Of a DNA stretch of 64,000 nt, positions 29,791 through 63,769 are shown piece after piece. Below the pieces are notes generated by a model. It saw nothing but the letters and a program-made list of their open reading frames with translations, ran no database searches and was not told where the DNA came from. The first letter of the stretch is position 1. Each line of letters starts with the position of its first letter. Source of the DNA: a bacterium. GTDB taxonomy: Bacteria > Bacteroidota > Ignavibacteria > UBA10030. The position numbers and the translations under genes are program-made. The stretch covers positions 96,001-160,000 of the forward strand of contig JAZDJN010000087.1 in assembly GCA_043803945.1 (NCBI GenBank). Reading direction: 5' to 3'.

Positions 29791-32349
29791 CTACTCCGGT
29801 TGACGCAACTTCTTATAGTGTCCATAGAGCTCGTTCATGCAGTCGGGACAAATCCCGTGGCTGAATTCTGCTTCTGAGTGTTCATGAATATATGCTTCCA
29901 ACTGGCTCCAGTACCCTTTATCGTCGCGGATCTTTTTACACTTTGCACAGATCGGAATCAAGCCATGTAAGGTCTTAATTTTTGCTATCGCTTCATTGAC
30001 CCTGGTTTGTAATTCTTCCTCCCTCCTTTTTAAAACCATAACACGAGCCCTGTAGATTCCCCCAACTGTTGCAAGAACAACCACTACGCAAAGGAGAGAG
30101 AACCACGTTGTCTGATAGAAATAGGGTTCCAATTCAATCTGAAGGGAAGCACCTTGTTCATTCCAATAGCCGTCAGAATTCCGTGCCTGAACCCTGAATG
30201 TGTACTCGCCGGGAGGAATATTGGTAAAGTACGCTGCACGCCGCATACCGACCTCCTTCCATTCTTTATTAAATCCTTCCAATTTAAATTTGAAGAGAAT
30301 TTTTTCCGAGACGATAAAGCTCAGGCCGGTATAATGAATTTCCAGATAACTGTAACCCGGTAAGACAAGAATTTTCTGTGTCAGGGGTATCCGCTGATTG
30401 TCGATGCTGATGGATTCGATCTTCACCGGCGGCGGCACAGAATTCAGCGGAATGTCGTCGGGGTTTAGAATCGCTACACCGTTGGTTGTCGGGAACCACA
30501 TCTTTCCATCACTCGCCCTAATCCCTGCCGGTTGAGAATTCCCGTTGCATTCACTGCTTCGCATTCCATCCGCTGTGCCATAGCCAATGCAGATAATCTC
30601 GGGTGTATTTTTATCGGCAAACTCATTTAACGATTTACGTGAGATGCGGAAAACACCTTTGTTTGAACTCATCCACAGATGCCGATCGTCATCTTCAAGG
30701 ATTTGATAGATCGTGTCATCAAACAATCCATCTTGTGATGTATAGCGGAAAATCTTGTCCCCCTTGAGCCGGAATAATCCATCACCAAAGGTGCCAAGCC
30801 AGACTGTCCGGTCGTCGTCTTCGTAGATGGCAAACACGTCGGAGGGGATGCCGTTTCTTGCATCATAGAGTGTGGTTTTACCTTTCTGCCATCGAGCTAA
30901 TCCTGAGGAGTACCCTGCCCACATAGTATTATCCCGCCCACGATACACCACTCGAATCCTTGTCGCAGGGATTCCCTCCTTTTCCAGGTTCTCAAATCTC
31001 CCGTTGCGCAAACGATCGATTCCACCTTCAGCGTACGCCACCCATAAATTCCCCTCAAAATCCTCCGTCAATCCGCGTACATATTCATAGGTAAGGCTAT
31101 TCTGAGTGGTGTAGTTCTTAAATGTCCGGCCGTTAAATTGTGATAGTCCTTTTCTCATACCAATCCAGAGCTTGCCGCGTGAATCGACATAGACTGAACG
31201 GATCTGATTGTTGAGCAATCCATCCTGTGTTGTATAGTTGGTGATCACACCATTTTTCCAGTGTGACAGCCCCGTCTCAGTTCCAATCCAAAAAGATCCT
31301 CCGCGACCTTCGAAAATCGACCAAACCTGGGGACCGGCAAGACCTTCTGGAGTTGAGTACGATTCAAATTTCCCACGCCATAATTTATTGACGCCATGAT
31401 AATACGTACCGGCCCAGATATTCCCTTCATGATCTTCCATCAGCGAAAGAATATGAACCGCTGAGAGCCCTTCTCGTGAAGATAAATTTTCCAGAGATCC
31501 ATCCATGAACCGATATAATCCGTTCTTCTCTGTACCGATCCACACACTTCCGGTTCTATCTGTATAGAGTGAATGAATTAACGATGATGATATCTCCGAA
31601 AGTTTTTCACACTGTCGATTTTTAGAGTTCCTGAGAAAGTATAATCCTTCAGCCGTTCCAACCCAGAGTGTTTGGTCTTTGCCCAGACAGAGAGCATAAA
31701 TGATAATGGATCGGGGAAAACCCTGAATGGGAACATCGTGTAGTTCCCCCCCTCTCAAGACCTTAAGGCCTACATTCGTTCCAACCCATAGTGTTCCTTG
31801 TTGATCCTCAGTCAGAGCAGTGACAGTCAGATCCTTGAGGTTTTGATGTGCAGGACTGACTGCTACCATTCCATTGCGAACAGTAAGGAGCCCCACTCTG
31901 GAACCTATCAAGAGGTTTCCGTTATGATCGAGAAAGAGAGTGTTACATATGAATACACCAATGGATGGATCAGCGGGAACCGGTGTAAACACTCCATGAA
32001 AATACTTTACCAAACCGCGAATCGTGCCAATCCACAGAATCCCAGTGCTGTCTTCAACTATTGAGATAATCTCGTTGTGGGTAAATGCGGGTGTGTTTTT
32101 TTGATCGAACGTCTCAAAACGGACACCGTCAAAACGAACCAGGCCTTCCTGTGTTCCAAACCAGACATACCCATCTCTTGTCTGGCACATTGTCTTAATC
32201 TTATTATTTGGAAGCCCGTCTTTCGTTGACCAACTGACCAGATTGTATTGTGCCAGCGGGACAGCAGGTTTGACCTGGGAATGCGAGAGGTGGATTCCTA
32301 TTACAGGGAACAATGAGAGGAGAAAAATTCTTACGGGATGTGAAACCAT
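29791..32349 (-). CDS. Two-component-regulator propeller + Y_Y_Y membrane sensor with a C-terminal Cys4 tail (no kinase domain)
   Basis: DGL.N..I...D..G.LW.GT repeats, Y_Y_Y domain, TM helix, then GLIPICAKCKKIRDD...SHGICPDC. Confidence 0.85.
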   Translation of the reverse strand: MVSHPVRIFLLSLFPVIGIHLSHSQVKPAVPLAQYNLVSWSTKDGLPNNKIKTMCQTRDGYVWFGTQEGLVRFDGVRFETFDQKNTPAFTHNEIISIVEDSTGILWIGTIRGLVKYFHGVFTPVPADPSIGVFICNTLFLDHNGNLLIGSRVGLLTVRNGMVAVSPAHQNLKDLTVTALTEDQQGTLWVGTNVGLKVLRGGELHDVPIQGFPRSIIIYALCLGKDQTLWVGTAEGLYFLRNSKNRQCEKLSEISSSLIHSLYTDRTGSVWIGTEKNGLYRFMDGSLENLSSREGLSAVHILSLMEDHEGNIWAGTYYHGVNKLWRGKFESYSTPEGLAGPQVWSIFEGRGGSFWIGTETGLSHWKNGVITNYTTQDGLLNNQIRSVYVDSRGKLWIGMRKGLSQFNGRTFKNYTTQNSLTYEYVRGLTEDFEGNLWVAYAEGGIDRLRNGRFENLEKEGIPATRIRVVYRGRDNTMWAGYSSGLARWQKGKTTLYDARNGIPSDVFAIYEDDDRTVWLGTFGDGLFRLKGDKIFRYTSQDGLFDDTIYQILEDDDRHLWMSSNKGVFRISRKSLNEFADKNTPEIICIGYGTADGMRSSECNGNSQPAGIRASDGKMWFPTTNGVAILNPDDIPLNSVPPPVKIESISIDNQRIPLTQKILVLPGYSYLEIHYTGLSFIVSEKILFKFKLEGFNKEWKEVGMRRAAYFTNIPPGEYTFRVQARNSDGYWNEQGASLQIELEPYFYQTTWFSLLCVVVVLATVGGIYRARVMVLKRREEELQTRVNEAIAKIKTLHGLIPICAKCKKIRDDKGYWSQLEAYIHEHSEAEFSHGICPDCMNELYGHYKKLRQPE

Positions 32350-32495
32350 ACGCTGATACCGTTTCTGCAACAAGCCGGGGGGCGACAAATTGATGCCCTG
32401 GGAGTCGTTCGCCTAAAAGTAGAGAAACGATGAGAAGAAAGCAAATAGATGGAGCGCTACTGCAGCATTCGAGAAAATCTGTGAGAAGAATCGAA

Positions 32496-33870: not shown

Positions 33871-34398
33871 ATGAAACAATATCATCTCTTGTTTATCGCT
33901 CTCCTGTTCCTTCTGCCTGCCTGTTCAAGCGAGCCTGAACACCCCGATCTGGAACAGGCAGCAAAGGCAGTCGAGTACCTCGTCGCACCATTCAGTGCCC
34001 CGAAGGTCTCCTTTTTTGCGGTACTGCCGAATGGCACTCCCAAACAATTTGTCAGTTGGTTTTTCTCTTCCATGGGGAGCGCCGATTGGCCGCCGATAGA
34101 GGGAACGTCTGAATTTTCACCGGATGAGCTTGCCTCCATGCGGCAAATCGGCATTCCGCTGCGGCCGAAGGATGTGTTCTACCGGCATACGCAGCCTGAT
34201 CCAAACATTCAGAAACAGATCGTTCTGAAATGGAACGACACCGAAGGGACGGTGATTCTTGAAGGGTATATTGATCCCAAACAATCCGCCGTCTTGACAC
34301 GATCGTTCAAACTCCCCAAAGGAGTGATCCCCAACGAGATGGCACGGCTTGTGGTACAATCGAACCTCGAAAGCGGGATGCGGTATCAATCGTTTTGA
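33871..34398 (+). CDS. Hypothetical lipoprotein
   Basis: GAGGAGG SD, signal peptide with lipobox LPAC. Confidence 0.75.
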   Translation: MKQYHLLFIALLFLLPACSSEPEHPDLEQAAKAVEYLVAPFSAPKVSFFAVLPNGTPKQFVSWFFSSMGSADWPPIEGTSEFSPDELASMRQIGIPLRPKDVFYRHTQPDPNIQKQIVLKWNDTEGTVILEGYIDPKQSAVLTRSFKLPKGVIPNEMARLVVQSNLESGMRYQSF

Positions 34399-34439
34399 TT
34401 TCTAAAATCGCCCTCATCAACCACACGCACATCAAGACC

Positions 34440-37400
34440 ATGAAAGCGTGCGATATTCATCCCCTAGGCACTATTCGCTTCCGGCTCATTCTCCTTCTCC
34501 AACTGACAGTTGCACTTCTGCATGCTCAACAGTATCTCTTCAAGACATACAACCGCGCCTCGGGCCTTCCCAGCGATTATATTCTCTGCATCTACCAAGA
34601 TCGGGATGGGTTTTTCTGGTTTGGGACAGACCGCGGCGCATGCCGGTATGATGGTAAAACATATATCATCTATACCACGACGGATGGGCTGGGAAGCAAT
34701 TTTGTGATATCGATTTTTCAGGACCATAGCGGTGCGATGTGGTTCGGACTGTACGAAGGAGGCGTGACGAAACTCGATCGGCATGGATGTGTGACATTCA
34801 ATAAGAACCATGGATTTCCGGGAAAAAGCGTGATCAACATTCTTCAGGACAGCTTTGAACGCCTCTACTTCGATACGGACGAAGGAATTTGCGTGTTGCA
34901 TCATGATACTGTTACGTGTCTCCCTTTTCACAGCCAAAGCCGATTGCTTGCTCTGGTGAAAGACGGAAGCGTTTTGATTGAAGACTCATTGTCATTCTCC
35001 CTTATTCAACCATCGGCTGACTGTACTCTCCGGCTGAAAAGCGTTCAATTACCTTCTCATGTAAGGGATTTTTTTAAACTGAGATTTGGTCCTCGACATG
35101 CCATACTGCGGAAAAATGGAAATGTCTGCCTTGTGGGTATTCCCGGCTTAATCGAGCTCACAGGCATAACGAGCCGCTATCCATCGGCGGTAACAGAACT
35201 CTCCAATATTTCAATCGAATCCATCGTTGAGGACAGCGAGGAGACTATCTGGTGTGGAACGGAGCTTTCCGGCATCATCAAGATTGCGGCGAGGGGGAAG
35301 ACTTCTTATATGACCGTCAAGGGCGTTACACAAAAAAGAATCAGCGCTACCCTTTGTGACTATGAGGGAAATCTCTGGTTCGGTACGATGGGAGAAGGAG
35401 TACACAAATTGCTCGGCACACATGTTCTTGCATACGACGCTCAAAGCGGACTCCCTTCTTCCGATGTCACAACGATCTTTCAAGATTCCCAACACAATAC
35501 CTGGTTTGGAACCCGCGTCGGCATTGCGATCATCAACAATAATCGACCGCTGAAGCTCCCCCCGTATTATGCAACAATGAAAGAGGTCCGGGCTATCGGG
35601 GAAAGTGCGGCTGGATATTACATCGGCACATTCGAGCAACTCATTGGGCCGCAAACTCTCTCCAACCTGAGATCATTTTCGCCTCCTCCCTTTCGATGGG
35701 TCGGCTACGGCACATCATCACTCTATATTGATCAATCACACTCTCCTTCGGTCGTATGGCTTTCCACTTATGGCGGCGGCACGTTTCGCTTTTCCGAACA
35801 TGATACAATGCAGTACTTCGAGAGGAATGACAAGTTCTTTGTCAAAGGCAATATTGTCAGCGAGATGATTGAAGGGATCGTTCCGGGATATAACTCGCTG
35901 TGGTTCCTTTCGCGTAACCTTGGCGCAAGCAGGTACAAAAACGGATCGTTTGAAAATTATTCAACGCTGAATGGCCTTCCCTCCAACGCGGTATATTCTG
36001 TCTATGAACAGGAAGATGGTGTACTGTGGTTTGGAACCGATGCGGGCGTTGCCCGTTTGACTCCTCATGGGACACAACTGTTTTCAAGTAAGGAGGGCTT
36101 AAAGGGGAAGTATGTTTTGGCAATCATACCCGTGCAGGCGGGGAAGGCGTTCACCGATTCGAAGGGTGAGTACTGGATCGTCAGTGATCAATCGCTCCAT
36201 AAATATACTCGAGGAACACTGAAGAGTTACGGCAGTTATCATATCCTGCCATCTCCTGAAGCGAGTATGAACAGTGTGTGCCCCGTGAACGGAGGCTCCA
36301 CACTCTGGCTCGCGACAACCGAGGGAGGTATGAAAGTGGATCTCTCGAAAATTCATGACCGGTCAATTCCGCCCCGAATTTCAATTACAAGCGCACACCA
36401 CGACAGCGTTCCCTTTTTCAGTACAATACCGGGCTCTGTCGCGCACGATAACGGCACTCCTATCACACTTGCCTCAGACCAAAACCGTGTCTCAATTTCA
36501 TTTTCAGGATTGAGCTTTTATAATGAAAAATATGTGTCGTATGCTTACAAGCTCTCCGGCTTAACCGAGAATTGGTCCAGACCGATCGAAGAACGCATTG
36601 TCAGATTTCACAACCTTGATCCGGGCCAGTATGAGTTTGCCGTTGTGGCGATCAATCCGGATGGTGTTCGTTCTTTGGAACCGGCGAGAATCGCTTTTGT
36701 CATCACACCCCCATTCTGGAGCAAAGCATGGTTTTTTGCACTTCTTTCGCTGGCCTTTCTTGGAATGCTTTCCGGTTCAGTTCGTTATCTTTCCACCCAA
36801 AAATTGCGGAAGAAAGTTGTACGGCTGGAGCGAGAACGAGAGCTCCAACTTGAACGGGAGCGGACACGGTCGCACATTGCACGCGATCTCCATGACGACA
36901 TCTCGTCAACGCTGGGAAGCATTGCCCTCTATTCAGAATCGCTAAAACGGCAATCCCATCAGCTCTCAGAACGGCAGCGTTCCATGCTTGAACGAATCGG
37001 CTCTCTCGCTTCGGAAGCCGTCGATCATATGGGTGATATTGTCTGGTCGGTGGATCCGGGGCATGATACCTTCAATGATTTATTGTCACGCATGCGCAAC
37101 CTCGCTGTGGAACTGTGCAGCATTAATAAGATGGAATACGAGATTGACGTGCAAGCCGCTCCTACAGATTTTTCACTGGCGGAAGATGTCCGGAGAAATA
37201 TCTATCTCACATTTAAAGAAGCATTGAACAACATTATCAAACACTCCCGTGCATCCAGGGTAACCATTTCTGCCCATCTGCACGAAGGACTTTTTGAGAT
37301 GATGATCGAGGACGACGGGAATGGATTCAGGCTGACAGACACAGCCAGCCCCGCAAAACGGGGAGCGAAACAGGTACGGCCGGGGCATGGATTGCGCAAT

Positions 37401-37496
37401 CTAAAACAGCGAGCGGCAGAAATTGGTGCAAACCTCGAAATCAATTCGGTACCTGGTAAGGGAACAACAATCACCTTCAGAAAAAGAATGACATAG
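34440..37496 (+). CDS. Propeller/Y_Y_Y sensor histidine kinase (HisKA_3 type)
   Basis: Regulator propeller repeats, TM helix, IARDLHDD H-box, EALNNI.KH, DDGNGF and G.GL.N motifs; start uncertain. Confidence 0.92.
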   Translation: MKACDIHPLGTIRFRLILLLQLTVALLHAQQYLFKTYNRASGLPSDYILCIYQDRDGFFWFGTDRGACRYDGKTYIIYTTTDGLGSNFVISIFQDHSGAMWFGLYEGGVTKLDRHGCVTFNKNHGFPGKSVINILQDSFERLYFDTDEGICVLHHDTVTCLPFHSQSRLLALVKDGSVLIEDSLSFSLIQPSADCTLRLKSVQLPSHVRDFFKLRFGPRHAILRKNGNVCLVGIPGLIELTGITSRYPSAVTELSNISIESIVEDSEETIWCGTELSGIIKIAARGKTSYMTVKGVTQKRISATLCDYEGNLWFGTMGEGVHKLLGTHVLAYDAQSGLPSSDVTTIFQDSQHNTWFGTRVGIAIINNNRPLKLPPYYATMKEVRAIGESAAGYYIGTFEQLIGPQTLSNLRSFSPPPFRWVGYGTSSLYIDQSHSPSVVWLSTYGGGTFRFSEHDTMQYFERNDKFFVKGNIVSEMIEGIVPGYNSLWFLSRNLGASRYKNGSFENYSTLNGLPSNAVYSVYEQEDGVLWFGTDAGVARLTPHGTQLFSSKEGLKGKYVLAIIPVQAGKAFTDSKGEYWIVSDQSLHKYTRGTLKSYGSYHILPSPEASMNSVCPVNGGSTLWLATTEGGMKVDLSKIHDRSIPPRISITSAHHDSVPFFSTIPGSVAHDNGTPITLASDQNRVSISFSGLSFYNEKYVSYAYKLSGLTENWSRPIEERIVRFHNLDPGQYEFAVVAINPDGVRSLEPARIAFVITPPFWSKAWFFALLSLAFLGMLSGSVRYLSTQKLRKKVVRLERERELQLERERTRSHIARDLHDDISSTLGSIALYSESLKRQSHQLSERQRSMLERIGSLASEAVDHMGDIVWSVDPGHDTFNDLLSRMRNLAVELCSINKMEYEIDVQAAPTDFSLAEDVRRNIYLTFKEALNNIIKHSRASRVTISAHLHEGLFEMMIEDDGNGFRLTDTASPAKRGAKQVRPGHGLRNLKQRAAEIGANLEINSVPGKGTTITFRKRMT

Positions 37497-38620: not shown

Positions 38621-38773
38621 TACGAGTAAAGAATGGTCTTCAGAATTATTCATCATACTTCATCTGTGACTATCAGTGCGTTTCTTGTGTTATCGGTGTT
38701 CTATTCTTGGTTTTTCGTATGTATAAAATTGCTATCTGAGTTACCAATAAACTTTAAGTATATAGAGGTGGAT

Positions 38774-40840
38774 ATGAAAAAGTTATTCTTCCTCTCGTTG
38801 ATAATCACACAAACCGTATTTGCTCAATGGTTCTGGCAAAATCCCCTTCCGTTAAGTCATATACTCCAAAGTGTCCACTTCACCGATGCCAATACAGGAA
38901 CGGCTGTGGGGTTTGGCGGCTCAATTCTACGTACTACGAATGGAGGTATAAGCTGGACGATTCAGTTTTTCAACAATGAGCTTATTTTCAATAGCGTCTT
39001 CTTCATAGATGCAAATAATGGAACAGCAGTGGGAGTTCCTGGTGTCATTTATCGTACCACCAATGGCGGTGCAAAGTGGACGAGCCAAACCAGCGGAACG
39101 ACAAATAACCTCAATGGTGTCTTCTTCACCGATCCCAACACGGGAACAGCGGTGGGAGATGGCGATAAAATTCTCCGCACGACCAATGGTGGTGCAACCT
39201 GGACGAGTCAAACGAGCGGAATAACAAGCGCTCTCAGAAGTGTTTTCTTCACTGATGCCAATACTGGGACAGTGGTTGGAAATAGTGGAACCATTCTTCG
39301 CACTACGAATGGTGGAGCGACCTGGGTGAGCCAAACAAGTGGAACAACGACTGGCTTTTCAAATATCTTCTTCACCAACGCCAATGTTGGAACAGCCGTT
39401 GGCGGTGGTGGAAAAATTCTCCGCACTACTGATGCCGGTGCCACCTGGACGAGCCAAACAAGCGGAACAACCAGACCACTTATGTGCGTCTTCTTCACCG
39501 ATACTAACACAGGAACGGCGGTGGGAGAAAGTGGCACAATTCTTCGGACCACCAATGGAGGTGCCGCATGGACAAGTCAATCAAGCGGTACAATTTATAC
39601 ACTCTATGGTGCCTTCTTCACTAATGCGAACACTGGAATAGTGGTCGGAATGTACGGTACGATTCTTCGCACCACTGACAGTGGTGCAAGTTGGGTGAAC
39701 CAATTATCTGGAAATTCAAGCCAGATCTTTGGTGTCGCCTTCACCAGTGCCACGACAGGAACAGCGGTGGGAGCAGGGACAATTCTTCGTACCACCACTG
39801 GCGGCGCAAGCTGGACAAGCCAATCTGTCGGAGTAACTGTCGGACTCAATGGTGTATCGTTCACCGACGCCAATATAGGAACAGCGGTGGGAACAGGCGG
39901 TGCAATATTTCGCACTACCAATGGGGGAACAACATGGACGCTCCAGACAAGTGGAACAAAGACTGATCTCAATAGTGTCTCCTTTACCGATGCTAATAGA
40001 GGAACAGCGGTGGGATGGTATGGCACAATCCTTCGCACAAACGATGGTGGTGCAACCTGGACGAGCCAGACTAGCGGAATCACAACCACGCTCTATGGCG
40101 TCTTTTTCACCGATGCCAACATAGGAACCGCAGTTGGAGATGGCACGGCAATATTACGCACAACAAATGGCGGAGCAAGCTGGACAAAACAGTCAATGAT
40201 GTACAATCTCCGGGGCGTTTATTTTAGCGATACCAATACAGGAACTGTGGTAGGAGAAAGTGGCAGAATTTTTCGTACTACCGATGGCGGCACAACATGG
40301 ACAAGGCAAACAAGTGGAACGGTATTTAATCTTTATGGCGTCTCCTTCATCGGTACCAACATAGGAGTTGCAGTAGGAACCTGGGGCACAATTCTACGCA
40401 CTACCAATGGTGGTTCAAGTTGGACAATCCAATCAAGCGGAACGACGAATGGGCTGCGCGCTGTCTCTTTCACCGATGCGAATACAGGAACAGCGGTTGG
40501 AGAAATCGGGACAATTCTTCGCACCACCAATGGCGGGATTACTGCGGTTGAAGAGTCTGTCGGTACGACAATCCCTGCAGGTTTTTCGTTACTGCAGAAC
40601 TACCCGAACCCATTTAATCCGAGTACAATAATCAGTTATCAGTTGCCGGTTCAAAGTTTTGTTAATTTAAAGGTGTTCGATGTGATTGGTCGAGAAGTGG
40701 AAACTCTTGTGAACGAAAGTCAATCTCCAGGTTTCTATCAAGTCCCATGGCAACCGAAATTTCTTTGTAGCGGGATATACTTTTATCGCATGACCACCGA
40801 TCGGTATTCACTTGTTAGGAAGATGATACTTCAGAGATAA
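38774..40840 (+). CDS. YCF48-like/BNR repeat protein (14 ~41-aa repeats) with T9SS C-terminal domain
   Basis: ATG 38774 after GAGGTG; repeats 'L..V.F.D.N.G.AVG..G.ILRTT.GG.TW'; LLQNYPNPFNP...SGIYFY..KM. Confidence 0.9.
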   Translation: MKKLFFLSLIITQTVFAQWFWQNPLPLSHILQSVHFTDANTGTAVGFGGSILRTTNGGISWTIQFFNNELIFNSVFFIDANNGTAVGVPGVIYRTTNGGAKWTSQTSGTTNNLNGVFFTDPNTGTAVGDGDKILRTTNGGATWTSQTSGITSALRSVFFTDANTGTVVGNSGTILRTTNGGATWVSQTSGTTTGFSNIFFTNANVGTAVGGGGKILRTTDAGATWTSQTSGTTRPLMCVFFTDTNTGTAVGESGTILRTTNGGAAWTSQSSGTIYTLYGAFFTNANTGIVVGMYGTILRTTDSGASWVNQLSGNSSQIFGVAFTSATTGTAVGAGTILRTTTGGASWTSQSVGVTVGLNGVSFTDANIGTAVGTGGAIFRTTNGGTTWTLQTSGTKTDLNSVSFTDANRGTAVGWYGTILRTNDGGATWTSQTSGITTTLYGVFFTDANIGTAVGDGTAILRTTNGGASWTKQSMMYNLRGVYFSDTNTGTVVGESGRIFRTTDGGTTWTRQTSGTVFNLYGVSFIGTNIGVAVGTWGTILRTTNGGSSWTIQSSGTTNGLRAVSFTDANTGTAVGEIGTILRTTNGGITAVEESVGTTIPAGFSLLQNYPNPFNPSTIISYQLPVQSFVNLKVFDVIGREVETLVNESQSPGFYQVPWQPKFLCSGIYFYRMTTDRYSLVRKMILQR

Positions 40841-40933
40841 CTGGATTGTTAACGAAATGGATGATGTAGTAGTACGACAGATTTCTAGAAAGAATAGTTC
40901 ATGTTAATTCGGTTTTCGATAAGGGGAACCTAT

Positions 40934-42280
40934 ATGAAAAAGTTTTTCTCTTGCCTGCTACCGTTGATCATAACTGCATTAGCTTTGGTTGGAGAGACTT
41001 CACCTCTCAAAGCGCAAACCCCAGGCTGGAGTGTTTCGCTCTGTAAGGTATGTTTCACCCCACAACAAAAAGAAGGGTATTGTGTAGGATGTAAAGAGTA
41101 CAAGAGCTTAACAAATGAAGAAGCTAAAATATGTACACATTGTTATGTAAAAACTGATATGTATATAAAGAATTGTTGTTATGTATGTTCAAGTAACGCT
41201 GGAAGAGGCGGTTTTGCACGATTATGCCGAAGTTGTGCTAAAAAAAATCAATGTATTGATTGCAGAAAATATTTAGGCAGCGGTAATGCTCCTGACGAAA
41301 CAGGAGACACTCGAAAAGTGATAGAACGGTACACCGTGAGAATTACAATCCCTGGTCAAAAAGAAATATTCATGAGTAGCTTCAATAAAGGAGTTGAAGC
41401 TCTCGGGAACAAAGAATACGAAGAAGCGATAAAATATTTCGATATAGAAATTAAGGAGGATCCTGACTACTACGAAGCCTATTATCAAAAGGCATCAACT
41501 CTGATTTCATTAAAGAGAGAGGAAGAAGCTGGACCCTTCCTAAAAAAAGCGATTGATCTTAACGTTCCTTATAGTAATTCCTATCTAGTCTATGCCGGCA
41601 TTTGTGAATTATATCATAAAGATTATGAGCAGGCAATAAAATACTATGAACTGGGATTCGAGCTTAAACCAGAGGAAACTGGTTTTAGAGGGAATCTTAT
41701 CGGTCTTTATCAACAATTAGGCAAACTTGATGATGCATTAAAGCATGCCAACATATTGTGCACTCTTTTGCCTAATAGTGCTGAAGCGTTATCTCAAAAA
41801 GCGGAGTTGCTATTTAACTCTAAGAAGTGGAATGAGGCGATACCGATCTATGAGCAAATAATATCAATGGATCCGGACCATGCAATTGGTGCTTACTATT
41901 ACTTGGGACTTTCTCTATATCAGGTGGATCAATTTGAAAACGCCAGAGAGAATTGGAAAAAGTTTGCTGAGATTGACGAAAAGAAAAGATCCGATCCTTA
42001 TGCTTTACTTGCCGTTTGTGAAATGAAATTAAATAATCCTATTGAAGCAGAAAAGTACTGTGAAACAACTCTTGAGCTATTGAAGGATGAGAATCCGTCT
42101 GTTTTTTACAACCTTGCATGTGCCTATTCGTTGTTAAACAAAGTTGATAAAGGCTTAGAACTTTTAGAAAAAGCGTTGAAGACCGGACAAGTAAATATTC
42201 CTTATATGGAATCGGATAAGGATTTAATAAATGTAAGACAAACCGAGGGCTACAAAGAGCTGATATCTAAATATAAATAG
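40934..42280 (+). CDS. Secreted protein with a six-CxxC zinc domain (PHF5-like) followed by TPRs
   Basis: Signal peptide; CKVC/CVGC/CTHC/CYVC/CRSC/CIDC; multiple TPRs ending YNLAC.YS...D.DL. Confidence 0.85.
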   Translation: MKKFFSCLLPLIITALALVGETSPLKAQTPGWSVSLCKVCFTPQQKEGYCVGCKEYKSLTNEEAKICTHCYVKTDMYIKNCCYVCSSNAGRGGFARLCRSCAKKNQCIDCRKYLGSGNAPDETGDTRKVIERYTVRITIPGQKEIFMSSFNKGVEALGNKEYEEAIKYFDIEIKEDPDYYEAYYQKASTLISLKREEEAGPFLKKAIDLNVPYSNSYLVYAGICELYHKDYEQAIKYYELGFELKPEETGFRGNLIGLYQQLGKLDDALKHANILCTLLPNSAEALSQKAELLFNSKKWNEAIPIYEQIISMDPDHAIGAYYYLGLSLYQVDQFENARENWKKFAEIDEKKRSDPYALLAVCEMKLNNPIEAEKYCETTLELLKDENPSVFYNLACAYSLLNKVDKGLELLEKALKTGQVNIPYMESDKDLINVRQTEGYKELISKYK

Positions 42281-42363
42281 CACTTGGTTATAGAGAAAAT
42301 AATGTGAGCGAATGAATCTAACCCTAAGATGTCTATCAACAATACCATAAAGGAGTGACCACA

Positions 42364-43131
42364 ATGAGAAAGCTATCACTCATTATTCTCATGCTGCTGC
42401 CATTCATGATTTCGACAGCACAGTATCAGGATGAATTTTACAACAACGGGACTGCCATCGGTGTCTGTTATACTTCTATTGGACATAATATGACTCCAGT
42501 CAGAGGAAAAGTCACTACGAGCGATGGAGAGAGACCCTATAAATCAAGCGGAAGCATGTTTGGCTTCACACTGTTTACCGAATGGAATCAAACAGGTGCA
42601 TGGAAGTATAATTGGAGTTACAAATCGCACTTTATCGATGATTTCGTTGCCATCCTGCAAGCTATCAAGAATATGAACGACGCTAACAAAGAGGCATCGC
42701 CATGGTTCTATTGTTTTCTTGAAGCCAATAACGGGCTGAATGTGTATTACGATCGATCAACAAGGGTTGCTGCCGGTTTATCGTTCAACATTTTTCAGCT
42801 CGAATTTTGGGCAAGCAATGGAGAGTATAATGCCCAGCGCGGCCTCTATTTTAATTTCGGACCCTATGTGAACGGTGACTATATGCTCTCGAATGACCTT
42901 CTCTTGAAAATGGGGTTTTCGACCACCTTTCCTGTGAGCGGCGTCAAGGGTGCAAAAAAACCGGTCTTTATAAACTTTACGCCCGGAATTATGATGAATA
43001 ACGGGCTGTACTTCGGCATCGATTACACCATCATCAGCGGGTTGGAAGATTCTGCACCGGGTAAAACCGGCACAAGCTTAAGCGGCTCTCGATTTGAATT
43101 AAAGTTCGCTCTGTTTACCGATATTCTGTAA
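42364..43131 (+). CDS. Hypothetical exported protein, probable outer-membrane beta-barrel
   Basis: Signal peptide, alternating aromatic beta-strand pattern; AAAGGAG SD. Confidence 0.65.
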   Translation: MRKLSLIILMLLPFMISTAQYQDEFYNNGTAIGVCYTSIGHNMTPVRGKVTTSDGERPYKSSGSMFGFTLFTEWNQTGAWKYNWSYKSHFIDDFVAILQAIKNMNDANKEASPWFYCFLEANNGLNVYYDRSTRVAAGLSFNIFQLEFWASNGEYNAQRGLYFNFGPYVNGDYMLSNDLLLKMGFSTTFPVSGVKGAKKPVFINFTPGIMMNNGLYFGIDYTIISGLEDSAPGKTGTSLSGSRFELKFALFTDIL

Positions 43132-43193: not shown

Positions 43194-45656
43194 ATGAAAC
43201 CCAGATTGATTGTTCTTTCGCTGTTCCTCGTCATCGTTACCATCTCAGCCCAACAAGTACCCAAGTGGGCGCTTGAATTAGACGATCCGATAGAAGGTTA
43301 TAGTTTTTTGCGTGATGGAAATTTCCTTTTTCTCAGGGCTGCAGAAAATGCCTACCTTTATGATGCGACTTCCGGTCAGAAAGTGTATGCCCTCAATGTC
43401 GATGGGTATGAAGCAAAAGGTGTACACGAGCTTGTCGGAGAGAAGTATCTTGTAAGCACGAGCGATAATCTTCGATGCTATGATGCAATGATAGGCAAAT
43501 TGCTCTGGGAAAAAGAATACAAGGATATCGATCAGGATGAATTCACAGAGCTTCGGTTTATCGGGGATATCTGTGTTTTGCGTTATGGGTTGAATCACGT
43601 TGCCATTAACCTGACTGCCGGAAACGAGATCTGGCGCCAGCGCCTTTCGTACAACAAAGACGTATCCGATAAAGGCGGTTGGAACATCCTGTCGCTCGAT
43701 AAGCAAAAGAAGCTATTGGTATTACTCGATTCAGATGCACTCGGGCTGTATAATTATTCAGATGGAAAAGAAACGTTATATCAAAAAGATATTGAAATAG
43801 ACGGAGACCTTGTTGAGAAGAAGCAACAATGGTGTTACATCTCGCAGGATCAACGCTATGTTCTCTTCACTCTCGATGGCGCTGTGGCTATTATTGATGT
43901 CCAGGGGAATAAGGAAATATTCAGAAAGAAAACCTCGTTCGACGATGAAAAGGGGGCAGTTTTTCCTACGGAGAGCGGGTGCGCTGTGCTCGGCAAGGAA
44001 GCGGTGGTGTTCCTCGATCAAAATACCGGAAAGGTCGCAGAAGTTGATGTATCGATAGATGATTTTCGAACATTTGAAATTATGAAGGTCGGCAACCAGG
44101 AAATTCTCTTTGCCGGCCTGAAACATGAAATGTTTGCTGTCGACCTTGCAGCAGGAATAGTTCTCTGGAGATCGAAGAAAGATGATCCTCAGTTCAAGGG
44201 ATATGCCCATCGGTACATTAAGATGGATGGCAACGCTCTGATCGTTACCTATACCTGGACTGGTGGTAACGGTTGTGATCTCTTTCTCATGAGTATCGAT
44301 GCTCTCACAGGAAAAGTAAATTACCGAACACCGTCATTAAGCAACTGTCCCTATGCAACTGCAGATTGGGCACGATCGATTTTTGGCGGGCTGTCAAAAT
44401 TCCTCGGCGCAAAAGACGTTGCCCGATCCCTGGGATGGGATAATATCGGGTACAATTACATTGTGGAAGAGTTTGAGGGAAATCTCGTGTTCGGTGTTCT
44501 TTCTATAAGTCCGCTGCGGAATCCTCAGACCGAAGAATCGGCTGGCGACGGCATTGCCATTATTAATCCCAAGACCGGTGAAGTAGTGTTCAAAGATTAC
44601 CTGCGCTTGAGTGATTACTCCCTTTTGTCTGTTGGTGCAATACGCTATGCCGATATGATGCCCTACATCGATGGCAACATTGCCTATCTGATAGGAGATG
44701 AAAATATCGCAGCGTACGATCTCAAAGCAAAGAAGCGACTGTGGCTGAACAAGGAAACCATCAAAGCGATCCCGAGAGAGGCCATGGTGGTTGATGGTGT
44801 TCTGTTTGTTAAATTCGGAGAATACAAATTCAATGTCTCTGTCACCGAGCCAGCCATACCGCCATTTGATTCCCCCTCGATGACGATACAGGATAAATGG
44901 GACAAAGATCCCTATGGCTTTGCTGCCTACGATGCATCGACCGGGGCACTGCTCTGGCGCATTGAAACAGAAGTCGATCCCAGCTTTTTGACGCCAAACT
45001 TTTCATTGAAGAACAATTACGATCCGGCGACAAAACGGTTGTACTACGGTGATGAGGAAAATATTTATGCATTACAGATGCGGCGCGATGGAGGGAAGTT
45101 CGACTACACTTTCAATTTGAGTAAGAATAATCTTGGAGAAATGTCTTTCAAAAAAACCTATGCAATCTCAGAATGGCCCATCGGCAGCGTGCGATATGGA
45201 TTCTATGATACCTATACGGAAGTAACCACCACGGTTGGGGGAAAAGAATTTGGCAGATTCATTTCAGCAGCAGAAGAAGCAGATGCGACAACAAGTTATT
45301 CTTTCTTCTTTACGGTGTGGGGCGTCGCAGCAAAGAAATGTCTCAGGGTCGTGTATGATCAGAATGCAATCTTCACCATGGCAAAGGAAGGAATTGCTCT
45401 CATTAATGCTGCGGATGGTAAACCCCGGTGGGTCCATCCATGGGAGTACGATCAGGATAATGTTCAATATTCCCCGGTAATCATCGGCGATAAACTCGTG
45501 TATTGTATTGAACGACAGCTCACATCTGTTGATATGAAAACCGGAAAGACTCTCTGGCAGTCAAAGGAATCAAAACGACCAATCGTCCTGATATCACCGA
45601 ATGAGAAATATATCTATACGATCGATAAAGAACTGATCAAAGGATATCAACTCTAA
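43194..45656 (+). CDS. PQQ-like beta-propeller repeat protein
   Basis: Repeated 'A.D..TG..(L/V)W' motifs; signal peptide; AGGAGG SD. Confidence 0.8.
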   Translation: MKPRLIVLSLFLVIVTISAQQVPKWALELDDPIEGYSFLRDGNFLFLRAAENAYLYDATSGQKVYALNVDGYEAKGVHELVGEKYLVSTSDNLRCYDAMIGKLLWEKEYKDIDQDEFTELRFIGDICVLRYGLNHVAINLTAGNEIWRQRLSYNKDVSDKGGWNILSLDKQKKLLVLLDSDALGLYNYSDGKETLYQKDIEIDGDLVEKKQQWCYISQDQRYVLFTLDGAVAIIDVQGNKEIFRKKTSFDDEKGAVFPTESGCAVLGKEAVVFLDQNTGKVAEVDVSIDDFRTFEIMKVGNQEILFAGLKHEMFAVDLAAGIVLWRSKKDDPQFKGYAHRYIKMDGNALIVTYTWTGGNGCDLFLMSIDALTGKVNYRTPSLSNCPYATADWARSIFGGLSKFLGAKDVARSLGWDNIGYNYIVEEFEGNLVFGVLSISPLRNPQTEESAGDGIAIINPKTGEVVFKDYLRLSDYSLLSVGAIRYADMMPYIDGNIAYLIGDENIAAYDLKAKKRLWLNKETIKAIPREAMVVDGVLFVKFGEYKFNVSVTEPAIPPFDSPSMTIQDKWDKDPYGFAAYDASTGALLWRIETEVDPSFLTPNFSLKNNYDPATKRLYYGDEENIYALQMRRDGGKFDYTFNLSKNNLGEMSFKKTYAISEWPIGSVRYGFYDTYTEVTTTVGGKEFGRFISAAEEADATTSYSFFFTVWGVAAKKCLRVVYDQNAIFTMAKEGIALINAADGKPRWVHPWEYDQDNVQYSPVIIGDKLVYCIERQLTSVDMKTGKTLWQSKESKRPIVLISPNEKYIYTIDKELIKGYQL

Positions 45657-52051: not shown

Positions 52052-52825
52052 ATGAACAGAACTCGCGCTATAGGATTGTTGCTCTTTCTTCTCTCCTGGT
52101 TCTTGCTGCAGCAGTGCGGCGAGGCTCCTCCGACAATTCCGGAACTGTTTACCGGATCGCTTAAAATAACGGCATCTGATCCGGCAATCAAATCTCTGGC
52201 AATCGACCTTGACGACATAAAGCTTGGTCTCTTTCCGAATCCGGCATTGGTATCAGATCTTACAATCGGCACTCATAAACTTCTGGTCACCGGAGACAAT
52301 AAGGCTTCATCAGTACTACTCGTAACCATCGCACGAAATCAGCAAACCAATATTGTTCTCGAATTGCTGGCCGAAGGTGCGTTTCTAGGACAGAAAGCTC
52401 CAGATTTTGCTGTGACGACTATCCTGAATGAGCGATTCTCCCTTGAGTCGCAGAAAGGCAAAGTGGTGCTTCTTGCCTTTTTTGAACATACCTGACTGGA
52501 GTGCATTCAGGCGGAGTTGCCGTCTGTGCAATGGGTTGTCGGAGCAGCATTCTCGCCCGAGCAGTTGACGATATTGGGCGTGAATACTACATCCTCAACT
52601 GAGTGGTTGTTGAATTATCGCACCCAGTCGGGTATCACATTCCCATTCGCGTACGATCAGAAGAGCGAATTGTTTACCAAGTACAAAATCGGCGGAACGT
52701 ATGGATACTATCCGCCGACGTATATCATCATCGATCAGAACGGTATTGTCCGGTACAGAATTGACAACACCTTTAAACGAGCAGTGGAAATGGCAACTTG
52801 CATAAAAGGATTACTCACAAACTAA
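52052..52825 (+). CDS. TlpA/peroxiredoxin-like thioredoxin-fold selenoprotein (UxxC) with N-terminal PEGA-like domain, probable lipoprotein
   Basis: G.KAPDF...GKVVLLAFFEHT-TGA(52493-52495)-LECIQAELP joins ORFs 51935 and 52517 in one frame; later YPPTYIIIDQNG.VRY. Confidence 0.9.
52502..52530 (+). promoter_or_regulatory. SECIS-like hairpin
   Basis: TGCA..CAGGCGG-AGTTG-CCGTCTG.TGCA. Confidence 0.7.
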
Positions 52826-59007: not shown

Positions 59008-59514
59008 ATGGTCCGTCCAAATATCAGAACTCTAGCAACCCTGTTTATTCTTTTCGTTGTACCATCGTTGATCTCCCATGCACAGGAAGGCCTCAAAGCA
59101 GGAATGAAAGCACCAGACTTCGAGCTCTCCGACATTAACGGAAACAAGGTTTCTCTCTCTTCCTTCCTCAATAAAAACATCGTCGTCATTCACTTCTGGA
59201 AATCGAAGTGAAGAGAATGCCAGGCGGAGTTTCCGTCTCTCATCGATCTGCAGGAAGAAATTAAAGAAGTAAAAGTCCTCTCCATCAACACCATTGACAT
59301 GGCGAGAAGGGTACAGTCCGATGCCAGAGCTTTCGGCCTCCCCTTCGATGTCCTTGTCGGCAGGGATTCGAACATCCTTACCGTTTACAAAGTCACAAAA
59401 CTCCCCCGGGTGCTTATTGTCGGAAAGAAGGGGACTGTTGTCTTCACCGAAAAGTTTGCCTCCTATGAAAAGCTCAAAGAAGAAGTTGAAAAAGCATTGA
59501 AGAAGGGATTATAG
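59008..59514 (+). CDS. Exported TlpA-like thioredoxin-fold selenoprotein (UxxC, 168 aa)
   Basis: G.KAPDFEL.D.NG.KVSLS...VVIHFWKSK-TGA(59209-59211)-RECQAEFP; open frame to 59514 including LPRVLIVGKKG. Confidence 0.92.
59222..59238 (+). promoter_or_regulatory. SECIS-like hairpin
   Basis: AGGCGG-AGTTT-CCGTCT; shares CAGGCGGAGTT.CCGTCT with the 52508 hairpin. Confidence 0.7.
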
Positions 59515-62134: not shown

Positions 62135-63769
62135 ATGAAACCGTTCATTGTTGCTCTTGCTCTTCTTTTTGCGTTCTCCCTCCGCGCACAGGAAACGATC
62201 ATCACCGGCACACTGCTTGGTTATGACGGCAAACCGATGCAGATGACAAACATTCATCTTCAAAAACCGGGACAAAAACCAAAAGAAACTGTCCGGGCAG
62301 AGAAGGATGGTTCGTTCAAACTGATCGTTAAGGATACCGGCATTGTTCTTATCAAGTTTGCCGGACTCTTTCATCTGTCGGAAGATATTCCCTTTCTCAT
62401 CAAGCAACCGTCTACCATCAAGCTTTCGCTTCAGTTAGGGACATACCATTGCAATAAAAAACCACTAGACCCAAAGATTCTTGGAAGTTTTAATAATTGG
62501 AACTTATCGAAGCCTTTCGACCTGAAAGAAGAAAAGGATGGGACATATTCCGCGGAATTTGAAACAGCAGAAAAGGAATTTTCCTATCAGGTTCAGGGTT
62601 TTGAATCAACCGGTCGAACCGTTAACGGTACGCTTTCCGAACGGTATGAATACGACGGCGACGGTGATTATCGATCGATTGTGACACCAAAGGATGGAAA
62701 GATAAAAATTGTTTTTGATCCCTCTAAGGTTCTTGTCTCTTCCGCCCTGCCAAAACTCCAATTCGACGATCCCGGAAGCCGTGCGGCTCGCTATAGCACT
62801 TACCGCTTCGATGTCCTACGGTTGATACGGGAACGCTCATGGGCTCTCCTCGACTTTATTAACTCCGGAGGTGAGTCTAAAGACTTCAAGTTCGACAAGG
62901 ATTATTCGTCTGAGATGACCGCCTGCGCACAAGAAATAAAGAAGGAGAGTGATCCGCTGCTTCGTGATTTACTCTTTTTAAAATATTTTTACTACCCGCC
63001 TGAGAAAGGAGATATTGAAATTGCCAGACTCTACTTGAAGGTACTTCCCGACTTAATGAAACATCAACCTAGCGCGGGTGAGATCTCAGTTTTCTCTTCA
63101 CTTCTCTCGATCGGTAAAATGATGCAGTATAACGATGAATACATGAGCTCCTTTTTCGAGATCATTGATAATTCCAAAAGTGCAATTCTAAATTACAATT
63201 TGATCAATAATGTAATGAGAAATTTGAAGACACAGAACGATGCTGCGGCAGTAAAAGCATTCTACACGAAAGCGTTGGAAAAACTGGAAGGCACATCGTG
63301 GCTAAGGTCTTTCAAACAGCAATATGCTCCGAAAGCAGTAATTGCCGCAGGCGAAGCGGTTCCCTCTTTCTTAGTCAAGTCGCTGGAAGACAATACAAAA
63401 ATCTACACCAATCAAACAATGAAAGGCAAAGTGTACCTGGTACACTTCTGGGCGTCATGGTCCGAACCATCGTTGAAAGAGATGGAGAATCTTCACAAAA
63501 CGTATGAACAGTACAAAACAAAGAACTTTGAAATTCTCAGTCTCTCAGTTGATGCTTCACCGGAAGAGGGAACAGCGTTTCGTAAAAAGAAATGGGCGAT
63601 GCCCTGGCTCCATGCCTTTGCATCGACGGAGAAGAATTTGTTGGCCGACTTTGGGGTGCTTGCACCGCCAAAATTGATACTGATCGATACAAAGGGGATT
63701 GTCGTCGCAATGGACGCAGAGCTTCAGGGTGCAGCGTTGGGACAAACGCTTGCTCGTATTCTAAAATGA
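62135..63769 (+). CDS. Exported multidomain protein with a C-terminal TlpA-like domain whose CxxC is replaced by SxxS
   Basis: ATG 62135 after GAGGT; carboxypeptidase-regulatory-like N-terminus; GKVYLVHFWASWSEPSLKEM; PP..ILID.KG.VV. Confidence 0.85.
   Translation: MKPFIVALALLFAFSLRAQETIITGTLLGYDGKPMQMTNIHLQKPGQKPKETVRAEKDGSFKLIVKDTGIVLIKFAGLFHLSEDIPFLIKQPSTIKLSLQLGTYHCNKKPLDPKILGSFNNWNLSKPFDLKEEKDGTYSAEFETAEKEFSYQVQGFESTGRTVNGTLSERYEYDGDGDYRSIVTPKDGKIKIVFDPSKVLVSSALPKLQFDDPGSRAARYSTYRFDVLRLIRERSWALLDFINSGGESKDFKFDKDYSSEMTACAQEIKKESDPLLRDLLFLKYFYYPPEKGDIEIARLYLKVLPDLMKHQPSAGEISVFSSLLSIGKMMQYNDEYMSSFFEIIDNSKSAILNYNLINNVMRNLKTQNDAAAVKAFYTKALEKLEGTSWLRSFKQQYAPKAVIAAGEAVPSFLVKSLEDNTKIYTNQTMKGKVYLVHFWASWSEPSLKEMENLHKTYEQYKTKNFEILSLSVDASPEEGTAFRKKKWAMPWLHAFASTEKNLLADFGVLAPPKLILIDTKGIVVAMDAELQGAALGQTLARILK

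What the first reader, a model, noticed from the sequence alone, without database searches (positions are those of the whole stretch)
41030..41280. Bacterial secreted protein with a PHF5A/Rds3-like zinc-knot domain
Seen: LCKVC..GYCVGCKEY..AKICTHCY..CCYVC..ARLCRSC..QCIDC, i.e. three internal repeats of two CxxC pairs, after a signal peptide and before TPRs, in a visibly AT-rich gene. Established (from memory): the spliceosomal protein PHF5A/Rds3 has the pattern LCEKC..GKCVICDSY..VRICDECNY..RCVIC..AYYCKEC..GCP and folds as a three-zinc triquetra knot. Inference: a prokaryotic, more symmetric homolog or analog of this fold, relevant to its origin or to horizontal transfer. It could also be a Cys-rich client of the nearby thioredoxins.
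Basis: partly seen in the sequence, partly recalled or inferred. Interest (0 to 1): 0.7.

Follow-up and report, generated by a model that had tools for sequence, protein, structure and literature searches.

The report
Bacterial exported PHF5A-like triple zinc domain
A rare exported bacterial scaffold protein starts with a small cysteine-rich module that is predicted to bind three zinc ions and to fold like PHF5A/Rds3, a knotted spliceosome protein so far known only from eukaryotes.

Summary
Gene 40934..42280 (+) encodes a 448-aa protein with a signal peptide, six CxxC motifs (41042-41263), a conserved linker and a TPR array.

The Cys module is very rare. I collected 13 distinct sequences, all fused to TPRs, from two genera of another family of the same class, from metagenomes, and from this genome. 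Here the gene is AT-rich (GC 0.37 vs 0.48) and absent from 60 relatives, so it was probably acquired by transfer.

Cys-to-His or Cys-to-Asp changes at two knuckles, and the lack of DsbA/DsbB/VKOR in 5 of 5 host genomes, point to zinc sites rather than disulfides.

Sequence profiles do not support membership. The Pfam PHF5 model stays under its cut-off for 13 of 13, at the same level as RecR's zinc finger.

Verdict: probably a PHF5A-like three-zinc fold on a periplasmic TPR scaffold. Homology, the knot and zinc binding are unproven, and function is inferred only.

The parts
40934..42280 (+). Whole gene: 448-aa exported Cys-module + TPR protein (P0001). An alternative upstream start lies at 40901.
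   Evidence: 58% identical over its whole length to P0002. GC 0.369.
40934..41014 (+). Sec signal peptide (residues 1-27), with predicted signal peptidase I cleavage ..LKA|Q that leaves an N-terminal Gln
   Evidence: The sequence shows a basic N-terminus, a hydrophobic core and KAQ. The Gln is invariant in 13 of 13 members. Neighbouring exported ORFs also show A|Q. The Q-rule of Bacteroidetes is from PMC5837995 (search listing). No signal-peptide predictor was available.
41015..41281 (+). Three-zinc Cys module (mature residues 1-89), predicted PHF5A/Rds3-like fold
   Evidence: AF2 model mbf074cce5a34, block pLDDT 75-88 for residues 1-89. Foldseek, VIA and VIA-wide hit only PHF5A/Rds3.
41042..41053 (+). 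K1 CxxC (C37, C40), helix-type. The second ligand is C, H or D across the family.
41081..41092 (+). K2 CxxC (C50, C53), knuckle-type, invariant
41132..41143 (+). K3 CxxC (C67, C70), helix-type, invariant
41177..41188 (+). K4 CxxC (C82, C85), knuckle-type. Family variants are HxxC, CxxD and Cx4C. The extra Cys 81 is not conserved.
41225..41236 (+). K5 CxxC (C98, C101), helix-type, invariant
41252..41263 (+). K6 CxxC (C107, C110), knuckle-type. It always lies 5 residues after K5. It is Cx6C in one member (P0008).
41312..41359 (+). Conserved linker motif (RKVIERYTVRITIPGQ), probably strand-forming and of unknown role
   Evidence: Conserved in 13 of 13 members (Y and P invariant). Modelled with low confidence when taken in isolation (pLDDT 40-56).
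41375..42277 (+). TPR array ending in a TPR end-of-group domain
   Evidence: Pfam TPR_2, TPR_1 and others. NCBIfam NF047558 60.5 bits against a cut-off of 32.

Best explanation
The gene encodes a Sec-exported, signal-peptidase-I-processed TPR scaffold protein of a Bacteroidota-type bacterium. It has no lipobox and no T9SS tail, so it is most likely periplasmic. Its mature N-terminus is a module of about 85 residues in which six CxxC-type knuckles bind three zinc ions. The knuckles are predicted to pair in an interleaved way (1+4, 2+5, 3+6), which gives the compact triangular fold otherwise known only from the spliceosomal protein PHF5A/Rds3. A sixth CxxC takes the place of PHF5A's two lone cysteines. 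The module most likely serves as a rigid, zinc-stapled binding knob at the end of the TPR solenoid, which recruits or holds a partner in the cell envelope. The gene probably entered this genome by horizontal transfer from a low-GC relative. Shown here: the motifs and their conservation, the domain architecture, the rarity, the AT-richness, the model's exclusive likeness to PHF5A, and the missing Dsb genes. Inferred: zinc occupancy, the pairing, export, the role as a binding knob, and the transfer.
Confidence: 0.55

Rival explanations
1. The module is three independent, consecutive small zinc ribbons or knuckles (K1+K2, K3+K4, K5+K6), a beads-on-a-string 'triple zinc ribbon' akin to the double zinc ribbon domains common in bacteria. 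The PHF5A-like model would then be an AlphaFold artefact.
For: Sub-threshold Pfam hits to DZR_2 in 9 of 13 and DZR in 7 of 13 members. The three CxxC-loop-CxxC units look like repeats of one another. The top two ESM Atlas structure neighbours belong to clusters that carry DZR domains, though TM is 0.37 or less. The 2-sequence AF2 run gave no fold.
Against: No DZR hit reaches the cut-off (best 23.3 against 27 bits). The 13-sequence model is compact and matches only PHF5A/Rds3 among 48,161 chains. The K5-K6 spacer is fixed at 5 residues, which is short for a ribbon hairpin. Ligand variation would be spread over two sites instead of one.
Confidence: 0.25
2. The cysteines form up to six disulfide bonds in an exported, disulfide-knotted module, possibly handled by the thioredoxin-fold proteins encoded further along the window.
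For: The protein has a signal peptide. Three Redoxin-type domains lie in the window at 52388-52777, 59095-59481 and 63347-63718.
Against: Single Cys are replaced by His or Asp, the classical zinc ligands, in 9 of 13 members without loss of a partner Cys. No DsbA, DsbB or VKOR was found in 5 of 5 genomes. The Redoxin genes are 11-22 kb away, and this genome has 11 such hits. No Redoxin-type gene was seen beside the homologues, although only some flank genes were scanned.
Confidence: 0.07
3. The Cys4 sites bind iron (rubredoxin-like) or act as a redox or metal sensor or store in the envelope, rather than as purely structural zinc sites.
For: CxxC...CxxC sites can bind Fe. No tool here tells Zn from Fe.
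Against: No match to rubredoxin or Fe-S families below E 1. The best structural match is a structural zinc protein. His/Asp variants suit zinc.
Confidence: 0.05

Closest known systems
PHF5A / Rds3 (Pfam PF03660), the U2 snRNP SF3b subunit with a trefoil-knotted triple zinc finger
   Different: It is bacterial and carries a signal peptide, so it is extracytoplasmic rather than nuclear. It has six CxxC instead of five plus two lone Cys. The first inter-knuckle loop is 6-10 residues here and is short in PHF5A (my recollection). There is no long N-terminal strand before K1 (9 residues), so PHF5A's 'stem' is probably missing. It is below the Pfam cut-off. One site tolerates His or Asp. The knot is unverified.
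Double zinc ribbon domains (Pfam DZR_2 PF18912, DZR PF12773)
   Same: Runs of CxxC pairs in bacterial proteins. These are the most frequent weak Pfam hits (9 of 13 and 7 of 13).
   Different: All hits are under the cut-off. This module has six knuckles, not four. The model is one compact domain, not separate ribbons.
[quoted passage not shown]
   Same: Each predicted site joins a knuckle CxxC with a CxxC at a helix start. Rds3 is described as three GATA-like treble clefs at the corners of a triangle (PMC4999995, passages read).
Exported bacterial TPR scaffold proteins (NCBIfam TPR_END_plus NF047558)
   Same: The C-terminal 300 residues are an ordinary TPR array with the end-of-group domain.
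   Different: Apart from this small family, no TPR protein carrying this N-terminal module was found in the protein searches.

Membership tests
PHF5 (Pfam PF03660) | Scores over the family's curated cut-off (26.7 bits) | tested here: not met
   0 of 13 members are over the cut-off. 1 of 13 reaches 18.1 bits, E 0.0033. The same model gives RecR 20.3 bits in this genome. 0 of 401 genomes of the phylum match at E 1e-4 or better, though no positive control was possible.
PHF5 (Pfam PF03660) | Twelve Cys ligands arranged as five CXXC plus two lone Cys (PMC5458519 section 9) | tested here: inconclusive
   Twelve ligand positions are present, but as six CxxC. A sixth CxxC stands where one lone Cys is expected and the N-terminal lone Cys is absent. 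The equivalence is inferred from alignment ranges only.
PHF5 (Pfam PF03660) | Triangular three-zinc fold | tested here: met
PHF5 (Pfam PF03660) | Interleaved pairing of CXXC 1+4 and 2+5, and a left-handed trefoil knot | not testable with these tools
   No model coordinates are given out. The pairing is inferred from the fold match and from ligand variation confined to K1 and K4.
PHF5 (Pfam PF03660) | Eukaryotic nuclear protein, subunit of SF3b / U2 snRNP | tested here: not met
   Bacterial genome context with T9SS-tailed neighbours. Signal peptide with an invariant cleavage-site Gln.
Double zinc ribbon (Pfam DZR_2 PF18912) | Scores over the cut-off (27 bits) | tested here: not met
   Best 23.3 bits, E 5.7e-5. 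9 of 13 members match at E 10 or better.
TPR proteins with end-of-group domain (NCBIfam NF047558; Pfam TPR_1/TPR_2) | Scores over the cut-offs | tested here: met
   TPR_2 99.4 bits against 27, TPR_1 96.2 against 27.8. NF047558 60.5 against 32.
Bacteroidetes Q-rule substrates of signal peptidase I | Gln as the first residue after the signal peptide | tested here: met
   Gln follows ..KAQ or ..NAQ in 13 of 13 members. Cleavage and pyroglutamate formation were not tested. The rule is taken from the search listing of PMC5837995.
Structural zinc-binding domain (any) | Metal actually bound by the Cys/His/Asp set | not testable with these tools
   Inferred from C-to-H and C-to-D replacements and from the missing Dsb genes.

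The most novel reading that the evidence does not exclude
This is the first PHF5A/Rds3-type interleaved, possibly knotted, triple zinc finger outside eukaryotes. It is a true relative, or a surviving symmetric form, of the spliceosomal protein: three tandem copies of one CxxC-loop-CxxC unit with all six knuckles intact. That would show how the PHF5 fold arose by triplication. It works with zinc in the bacterial envelope, fused to a helical-repeat solenoid much as PHF5A sits inside SF3B1's HEAT solenoid.
Probability: 0.25. Interest if true: 0.8.

Novelty: new variant of a known kind. Interest (0 to 1): 0.62.

Why it matters
The authors of the PHF5A crystal structure found only Rds3 with a similar fold in the PDB (PMC5458519). 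Rds3 is described as having a unique knotted topology (PMC4999995).

A bacterial protein with that fold would give a second, independent context for a rare knotted zinc fold. It is more symmetric, exported and fused to TPRs. It would be a small, tractable model for how such a knot folds around metal after Sec transport. It would also be a data point on where one spliceosome part came from.

A study of spliceosome origins classed 33 ancestral units as eukaryotic inventions (PMC9887622). Whether PHF5A is among them is in supplements that I could not open.

The narrow spread of the bacterial family (two genera plus this genome) makes it an unlikely ancestor. Capture from a eukaryote and convergence both stay open.

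It would also be an uncommon case of Cys4 zinc sites outside the cytoplasm, in bacteria that lack the Dsb oxidation pathway.

Tried and rejected
Multihaem cytochrome c: none of the six motifs is CxxCH. A cytochrome c7 hit at E 0.14 is noise. Rejected.

Word-based protein search with the window sequence alone found only itself. The first genome-contig scan found 0 relatives among 51 pattern matches.

AF2 with 2 sequences failed (pLDDT 34).

Viral structure library: nothing (best probability 0.16).

ESM Atlas: feature hits of 0.82 or less and TM of 0.40 or less. These are leads only, and none names PHF5.

PDB sequence searches gave only chance-level Cys-pattern hits: PARP14, cytochrome c7, an MTF2 PHD finger, a LIM domain, ZCCHC4.

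Complex prediction of the module (with 3 Zn) against the protein's own TPR array: no verdict, score 0.00. It counts neither way.

Gene context: there are no shared neighbours between the window and L010. In the other family's loci the flanks hold TPR, WG-repeat and WD40 proteins and unknowns. No function could be read from this.

I searched for prior reports of a bacterial PHF5-like domain with four full-text searches. These were 'PHF5-like' + 'bacterial' (2 unrelated papers); 'triquetra' + 'zinc' + 'knot' (5 papers, none bacterial); 'AlphaKnot' + 'PHF5' (0); and 'PHF5A' + 'bacteria' + 'homolog' + 'zinc' + 'trefoil knot' (0).

The statement that many anaerobes without DsbA/DsbB keep exported Cys reduced is my recollection (Dutton et al. 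2008), not from a call.

Full report
**What is there.** The finding lies in one ORF, 40901/40934..42280 on the + strand.
- From the ATG at 40934 it gives a 448-aa protein, P0001. The database relative P0002 starts with the same residues.
- It begins with a typical Sec signal peptide: basic N-terminus, hydrophobic core, then ..LKA|Q.
- Next comes a Cys-rich stretch with six CxxC motifs, which I call K1 to K6. They lie at residues 37-40, 50-53, 67-70, 82-85, 98-101 and 107-110, window 41042-41263.
- A conserved linker follows, then a TPR array (TPR_2 E 2.4e-29) that ends in NCBIfam's TPR end-of-group domain (60.5 bits against a cut-off of 32).
- With 13 Cys in 98 residues, only 91 of 100,000 shuffles reach six CxxC.
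- The gene's GC is 0.369 against 0.479 for the window.

**How common it is.** The module is very rare.
- phmmer against 1.84 billion representative proteins found one relative, P0002, at E 1.9e-30.
- The metagenome locus that encodes P0002 (L010) holds a second, tandem paralogue, P0003.
- Two profile searches for proteins longer than the module added P0004 to P0008.
- In whole genomes the module was not credibly found in 60 relatives of the same family and order. The best E was 0.006, on short pieces, many with stop codons.
- It was found in 2 of 401 genomes sampled from the phylum, counting the window's own.
- It was found in 3 real cases of 401 sampled from the class. A fourth row had four stop codons.
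- It was found in 6 of 166 genomes of another family of the same class, in two genera: 3 of 21 and 3 of 9.

Together this gives 13 distinct module sequences (alignment A5). All have the same plan: signal peptide, module, linker, TPRs. One also has a C-terminal lectin-like 3-keto-disaccharide-hydrolase domain.

**Transfer.** Loci of the other family have GC 0.33-0.36. The window gene has 0.37, amid neighbours at 0.44-0.52. The gene is 56-58% identical to the proteins of the other family. Horizontal acquisition is the simplest reading. The PQQ-type propeller gene just downstream (43194-45656) is 70% identical to a gene that lies about 8.5 kb from the homologue in locus L021. It may have come along with the gene.

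**Metal or disulfide.** Nine of the twelve paired Cys columns are invariant. The variation is telling.
- The second ligand of K1 is Cys in 6, His in 6 and Asp in 1 of the 13.
- K4 is HxxC in one member, CxxD in one and Cx4C in two.
- K6 is Cx6C in one member.

His and Asp are zinc ligands. A lost disulfide partner would leave an odd Cys, and no compensating loss is seen.

The Pfam models for DsbB, VKOR and DsbA found nothing in 5 of 5 genomes that carry the gene, all at least 95% complete. They rang in 6, 3 and 9 of the 14 control genomes. So these bacteria seem to lack the usual disulfide-forming pathway. That makes thiolate-zinc sites outside the cytoplasm plausible. That last step is my inference from recalled literature.

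**Export.** The invariant Gln after the signal peptide (13 of 13) fits the Bacteroidetes Q-rule for signal peptidase I substrates (PMC5837995 and PMC10653852; I saw the search listings only). Neighbouring ORFs with signal peptides in the window show the same A|Q junction.

**Fold.**
- AlphaFold2 on a 2-row alignment failed (pLDDT 34).
- On the 13-row alignment it gave mean pLDDT 74.5 and pTM 0.60. Residues 1-89 scored 75-88 and the linker under 56.
- Foldseek against 350,542 PDB chains listed PHF5A or Rds3 at ranks 1-17. The best row had E 0.031, probability 0.96, target TM 0.49, rmsd 3.3 A over 76 columns and 24% identity. RING fingers followed at probability 0.07 or less.
- As a control, I ran the same sequence as the junk model through Foldseek. 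It gave 34 rows and no PHF5A. The match therefore comes from the model's shape, not from cysteine letters.
- BFVD gave nothing.

**Agreement with the PHF5A description.** In PHF5A the first and fourth CXXC bind one zinc and the second and fifth another. The third binds a zinc together with two lone Cys. The first, third and fifth are helical and the second and fourth are knuckles. The authors found only Rds3 with a similar fold in the PDB (PMC5458519 section 9, passages read). Rds3 is described as three GATA-like treble clefs at the corners of a triangle (PMC4999995).

In my model K1, K3 and K5 lie at the starts of helices 11-20, 41-46 and 72-77, while K2, K4 and K6 are non-helical. If the pairing is the same, K6 supplies the two ligands that are lone Cys in PHF5A. 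All changes of ligand type in the family (K1 and K4) then fall on one zinc site. No member has non-Cys ligands in both. This is consistent but weak evidence.

The three units also resemble one another by hhalign (B vs C 83.5%, A vs C 71.4%, A vs B 1.5%). That fits an origin by triplication.

**What speaks against it.**
- Sequence methods do not link the module to PHF5. The Pfam model is under its cut-off for 13 of 13, with one hit at 18.1 bits.
- In this genome its best hit is RecR's zinc finger at 20.3 bits. It also rang below cut-off in 4 of 14 control prokaryotes.
- PHF5A is absent from four PDB sequence or profile searches.
- Sub-threshold hits to double zinc ribbon models are commoner: DZR_2 in 9 of 13.
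- The alignment is shallow, and AlphaFold2 has seen PHF5A.
- I could not inspect coordinates, so zinc geometry, the pairing and the knot are unverified.

I therefore do not file the module as a member of the PHF5 family. I say that it probably folds like it.

**Function.** Nothing in the neighbourhood fixes a role.
- The window flanks are a Ycf48/BNR propeller with a T9SS tail, an unknown 258-aa protein, a PQQ-type propeller and an FG-GAP/TIG giant with a T9SS tail.
- The other family's loci hold TPR, WG-repeat and WD40 proteins.

My best reading is a periplasmic TPR adaptor whose zinc-stapled N-terminal knob binds a partner. This is inference from the architecture. A test of whether the module docks on its own TPRs gave no verdict.

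**Novelty.** I rate it a new variant of a known kind, conditional on the model being right.

My rough odds:
- 0.85 that it is a three-metal Cys/His/Asp domain.
- 0.55 that it has the PHF5A-like interleaved fold on an exported TPR scaffold.
- 0.25 that it is a true relative of PHF5A.

Noticed in passing
window 38633-40840 (+): 735-aa protein made of many Ycf48/BNR-like propeller repeats (PSII_BNR E 3.7e-56) with a T9SS C-terminal sorting domain. It lies directly upstream of the finding. Several long antisense and off-frame ORFs inside it are repeat artefacts.
   Followed up: partly
window 43194-45656 (+); L021 33-1052: The 820-aa PQQ_2/BamB-like propeller protein is 70% identical to a gene about 8.5 kb from the Cys-TPR homologue in a genome of another family. 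It may have been transferred together with the finding's gene. Its GC is 0.45.
   Followed up: partly
window 52388-52777, 59095-59481, 63347-63718 (+): Three Redoxin/TlpA-type thioredoxin-fold domains, among 11 such hits in the genome. Two of the three matches are flagged with one in-frame TGA inside the matched stretch. I did not look into this.
   Followed up: no
whole genome G000 and G238, G472, G475, G485: No DsbB, VKOR or DsbA-family match in any of the five genomes, while control genomes ring. These bacteria seem to lack the classical periplasmic disulfide-forming pathway.
   Followed up: partly
L010 6001-7860 and 7902-9977 (+): Two diverged paralogues of the Cys-TPR gene sit in tandem (P0003, P0002). 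P0002 has lost the second Cys of K1 (Asp instead) and gained a C-terminal lectin-like 3-keto-disaccharide-hydrolase domain.
   Followed up: partly
L018, L019, L020, L021 (flanks of the homologues): The neighbours of the homologues are mostly other repeat proteins: a 282-aa TPR protein, a 411-aa WG_beta_rep protein, a 358-aa WD40 propeller and several proteins with no Pfam family. A pyridine-nucleotide disulfide oxidoreductase lies next to the gene in three loci. This looks like a cluster of scaffold proteins of unknown purpose.
   Followed up: partly
G000:C29:1212-1355 (L023 368-964, minus strand): The best match of the Pfam PHF5 model in this genome (20.3 bits) falls in a 198-aa ORF that I read as RecR from its translation. 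I ran no family scan on it. It is a useful yardstick for noise with Cys-rich models.
   Followed up: yes
window 42355-43131 (+): 258-aa ORF with a signal peptide and an A|Q junction, with no Pfam family. It lies between the finding and the propeller gene, inside the GC dip (GC 0.44).
   Followed up: no
window 29791-32388 (-) and 34395-37496 (+): Two Reg_prop + Y_Y_Y proteins. The second also carries HisKA_3 and HATPase_c domains, so it is a sensor kinase of the propeller type.
   Followed up: no
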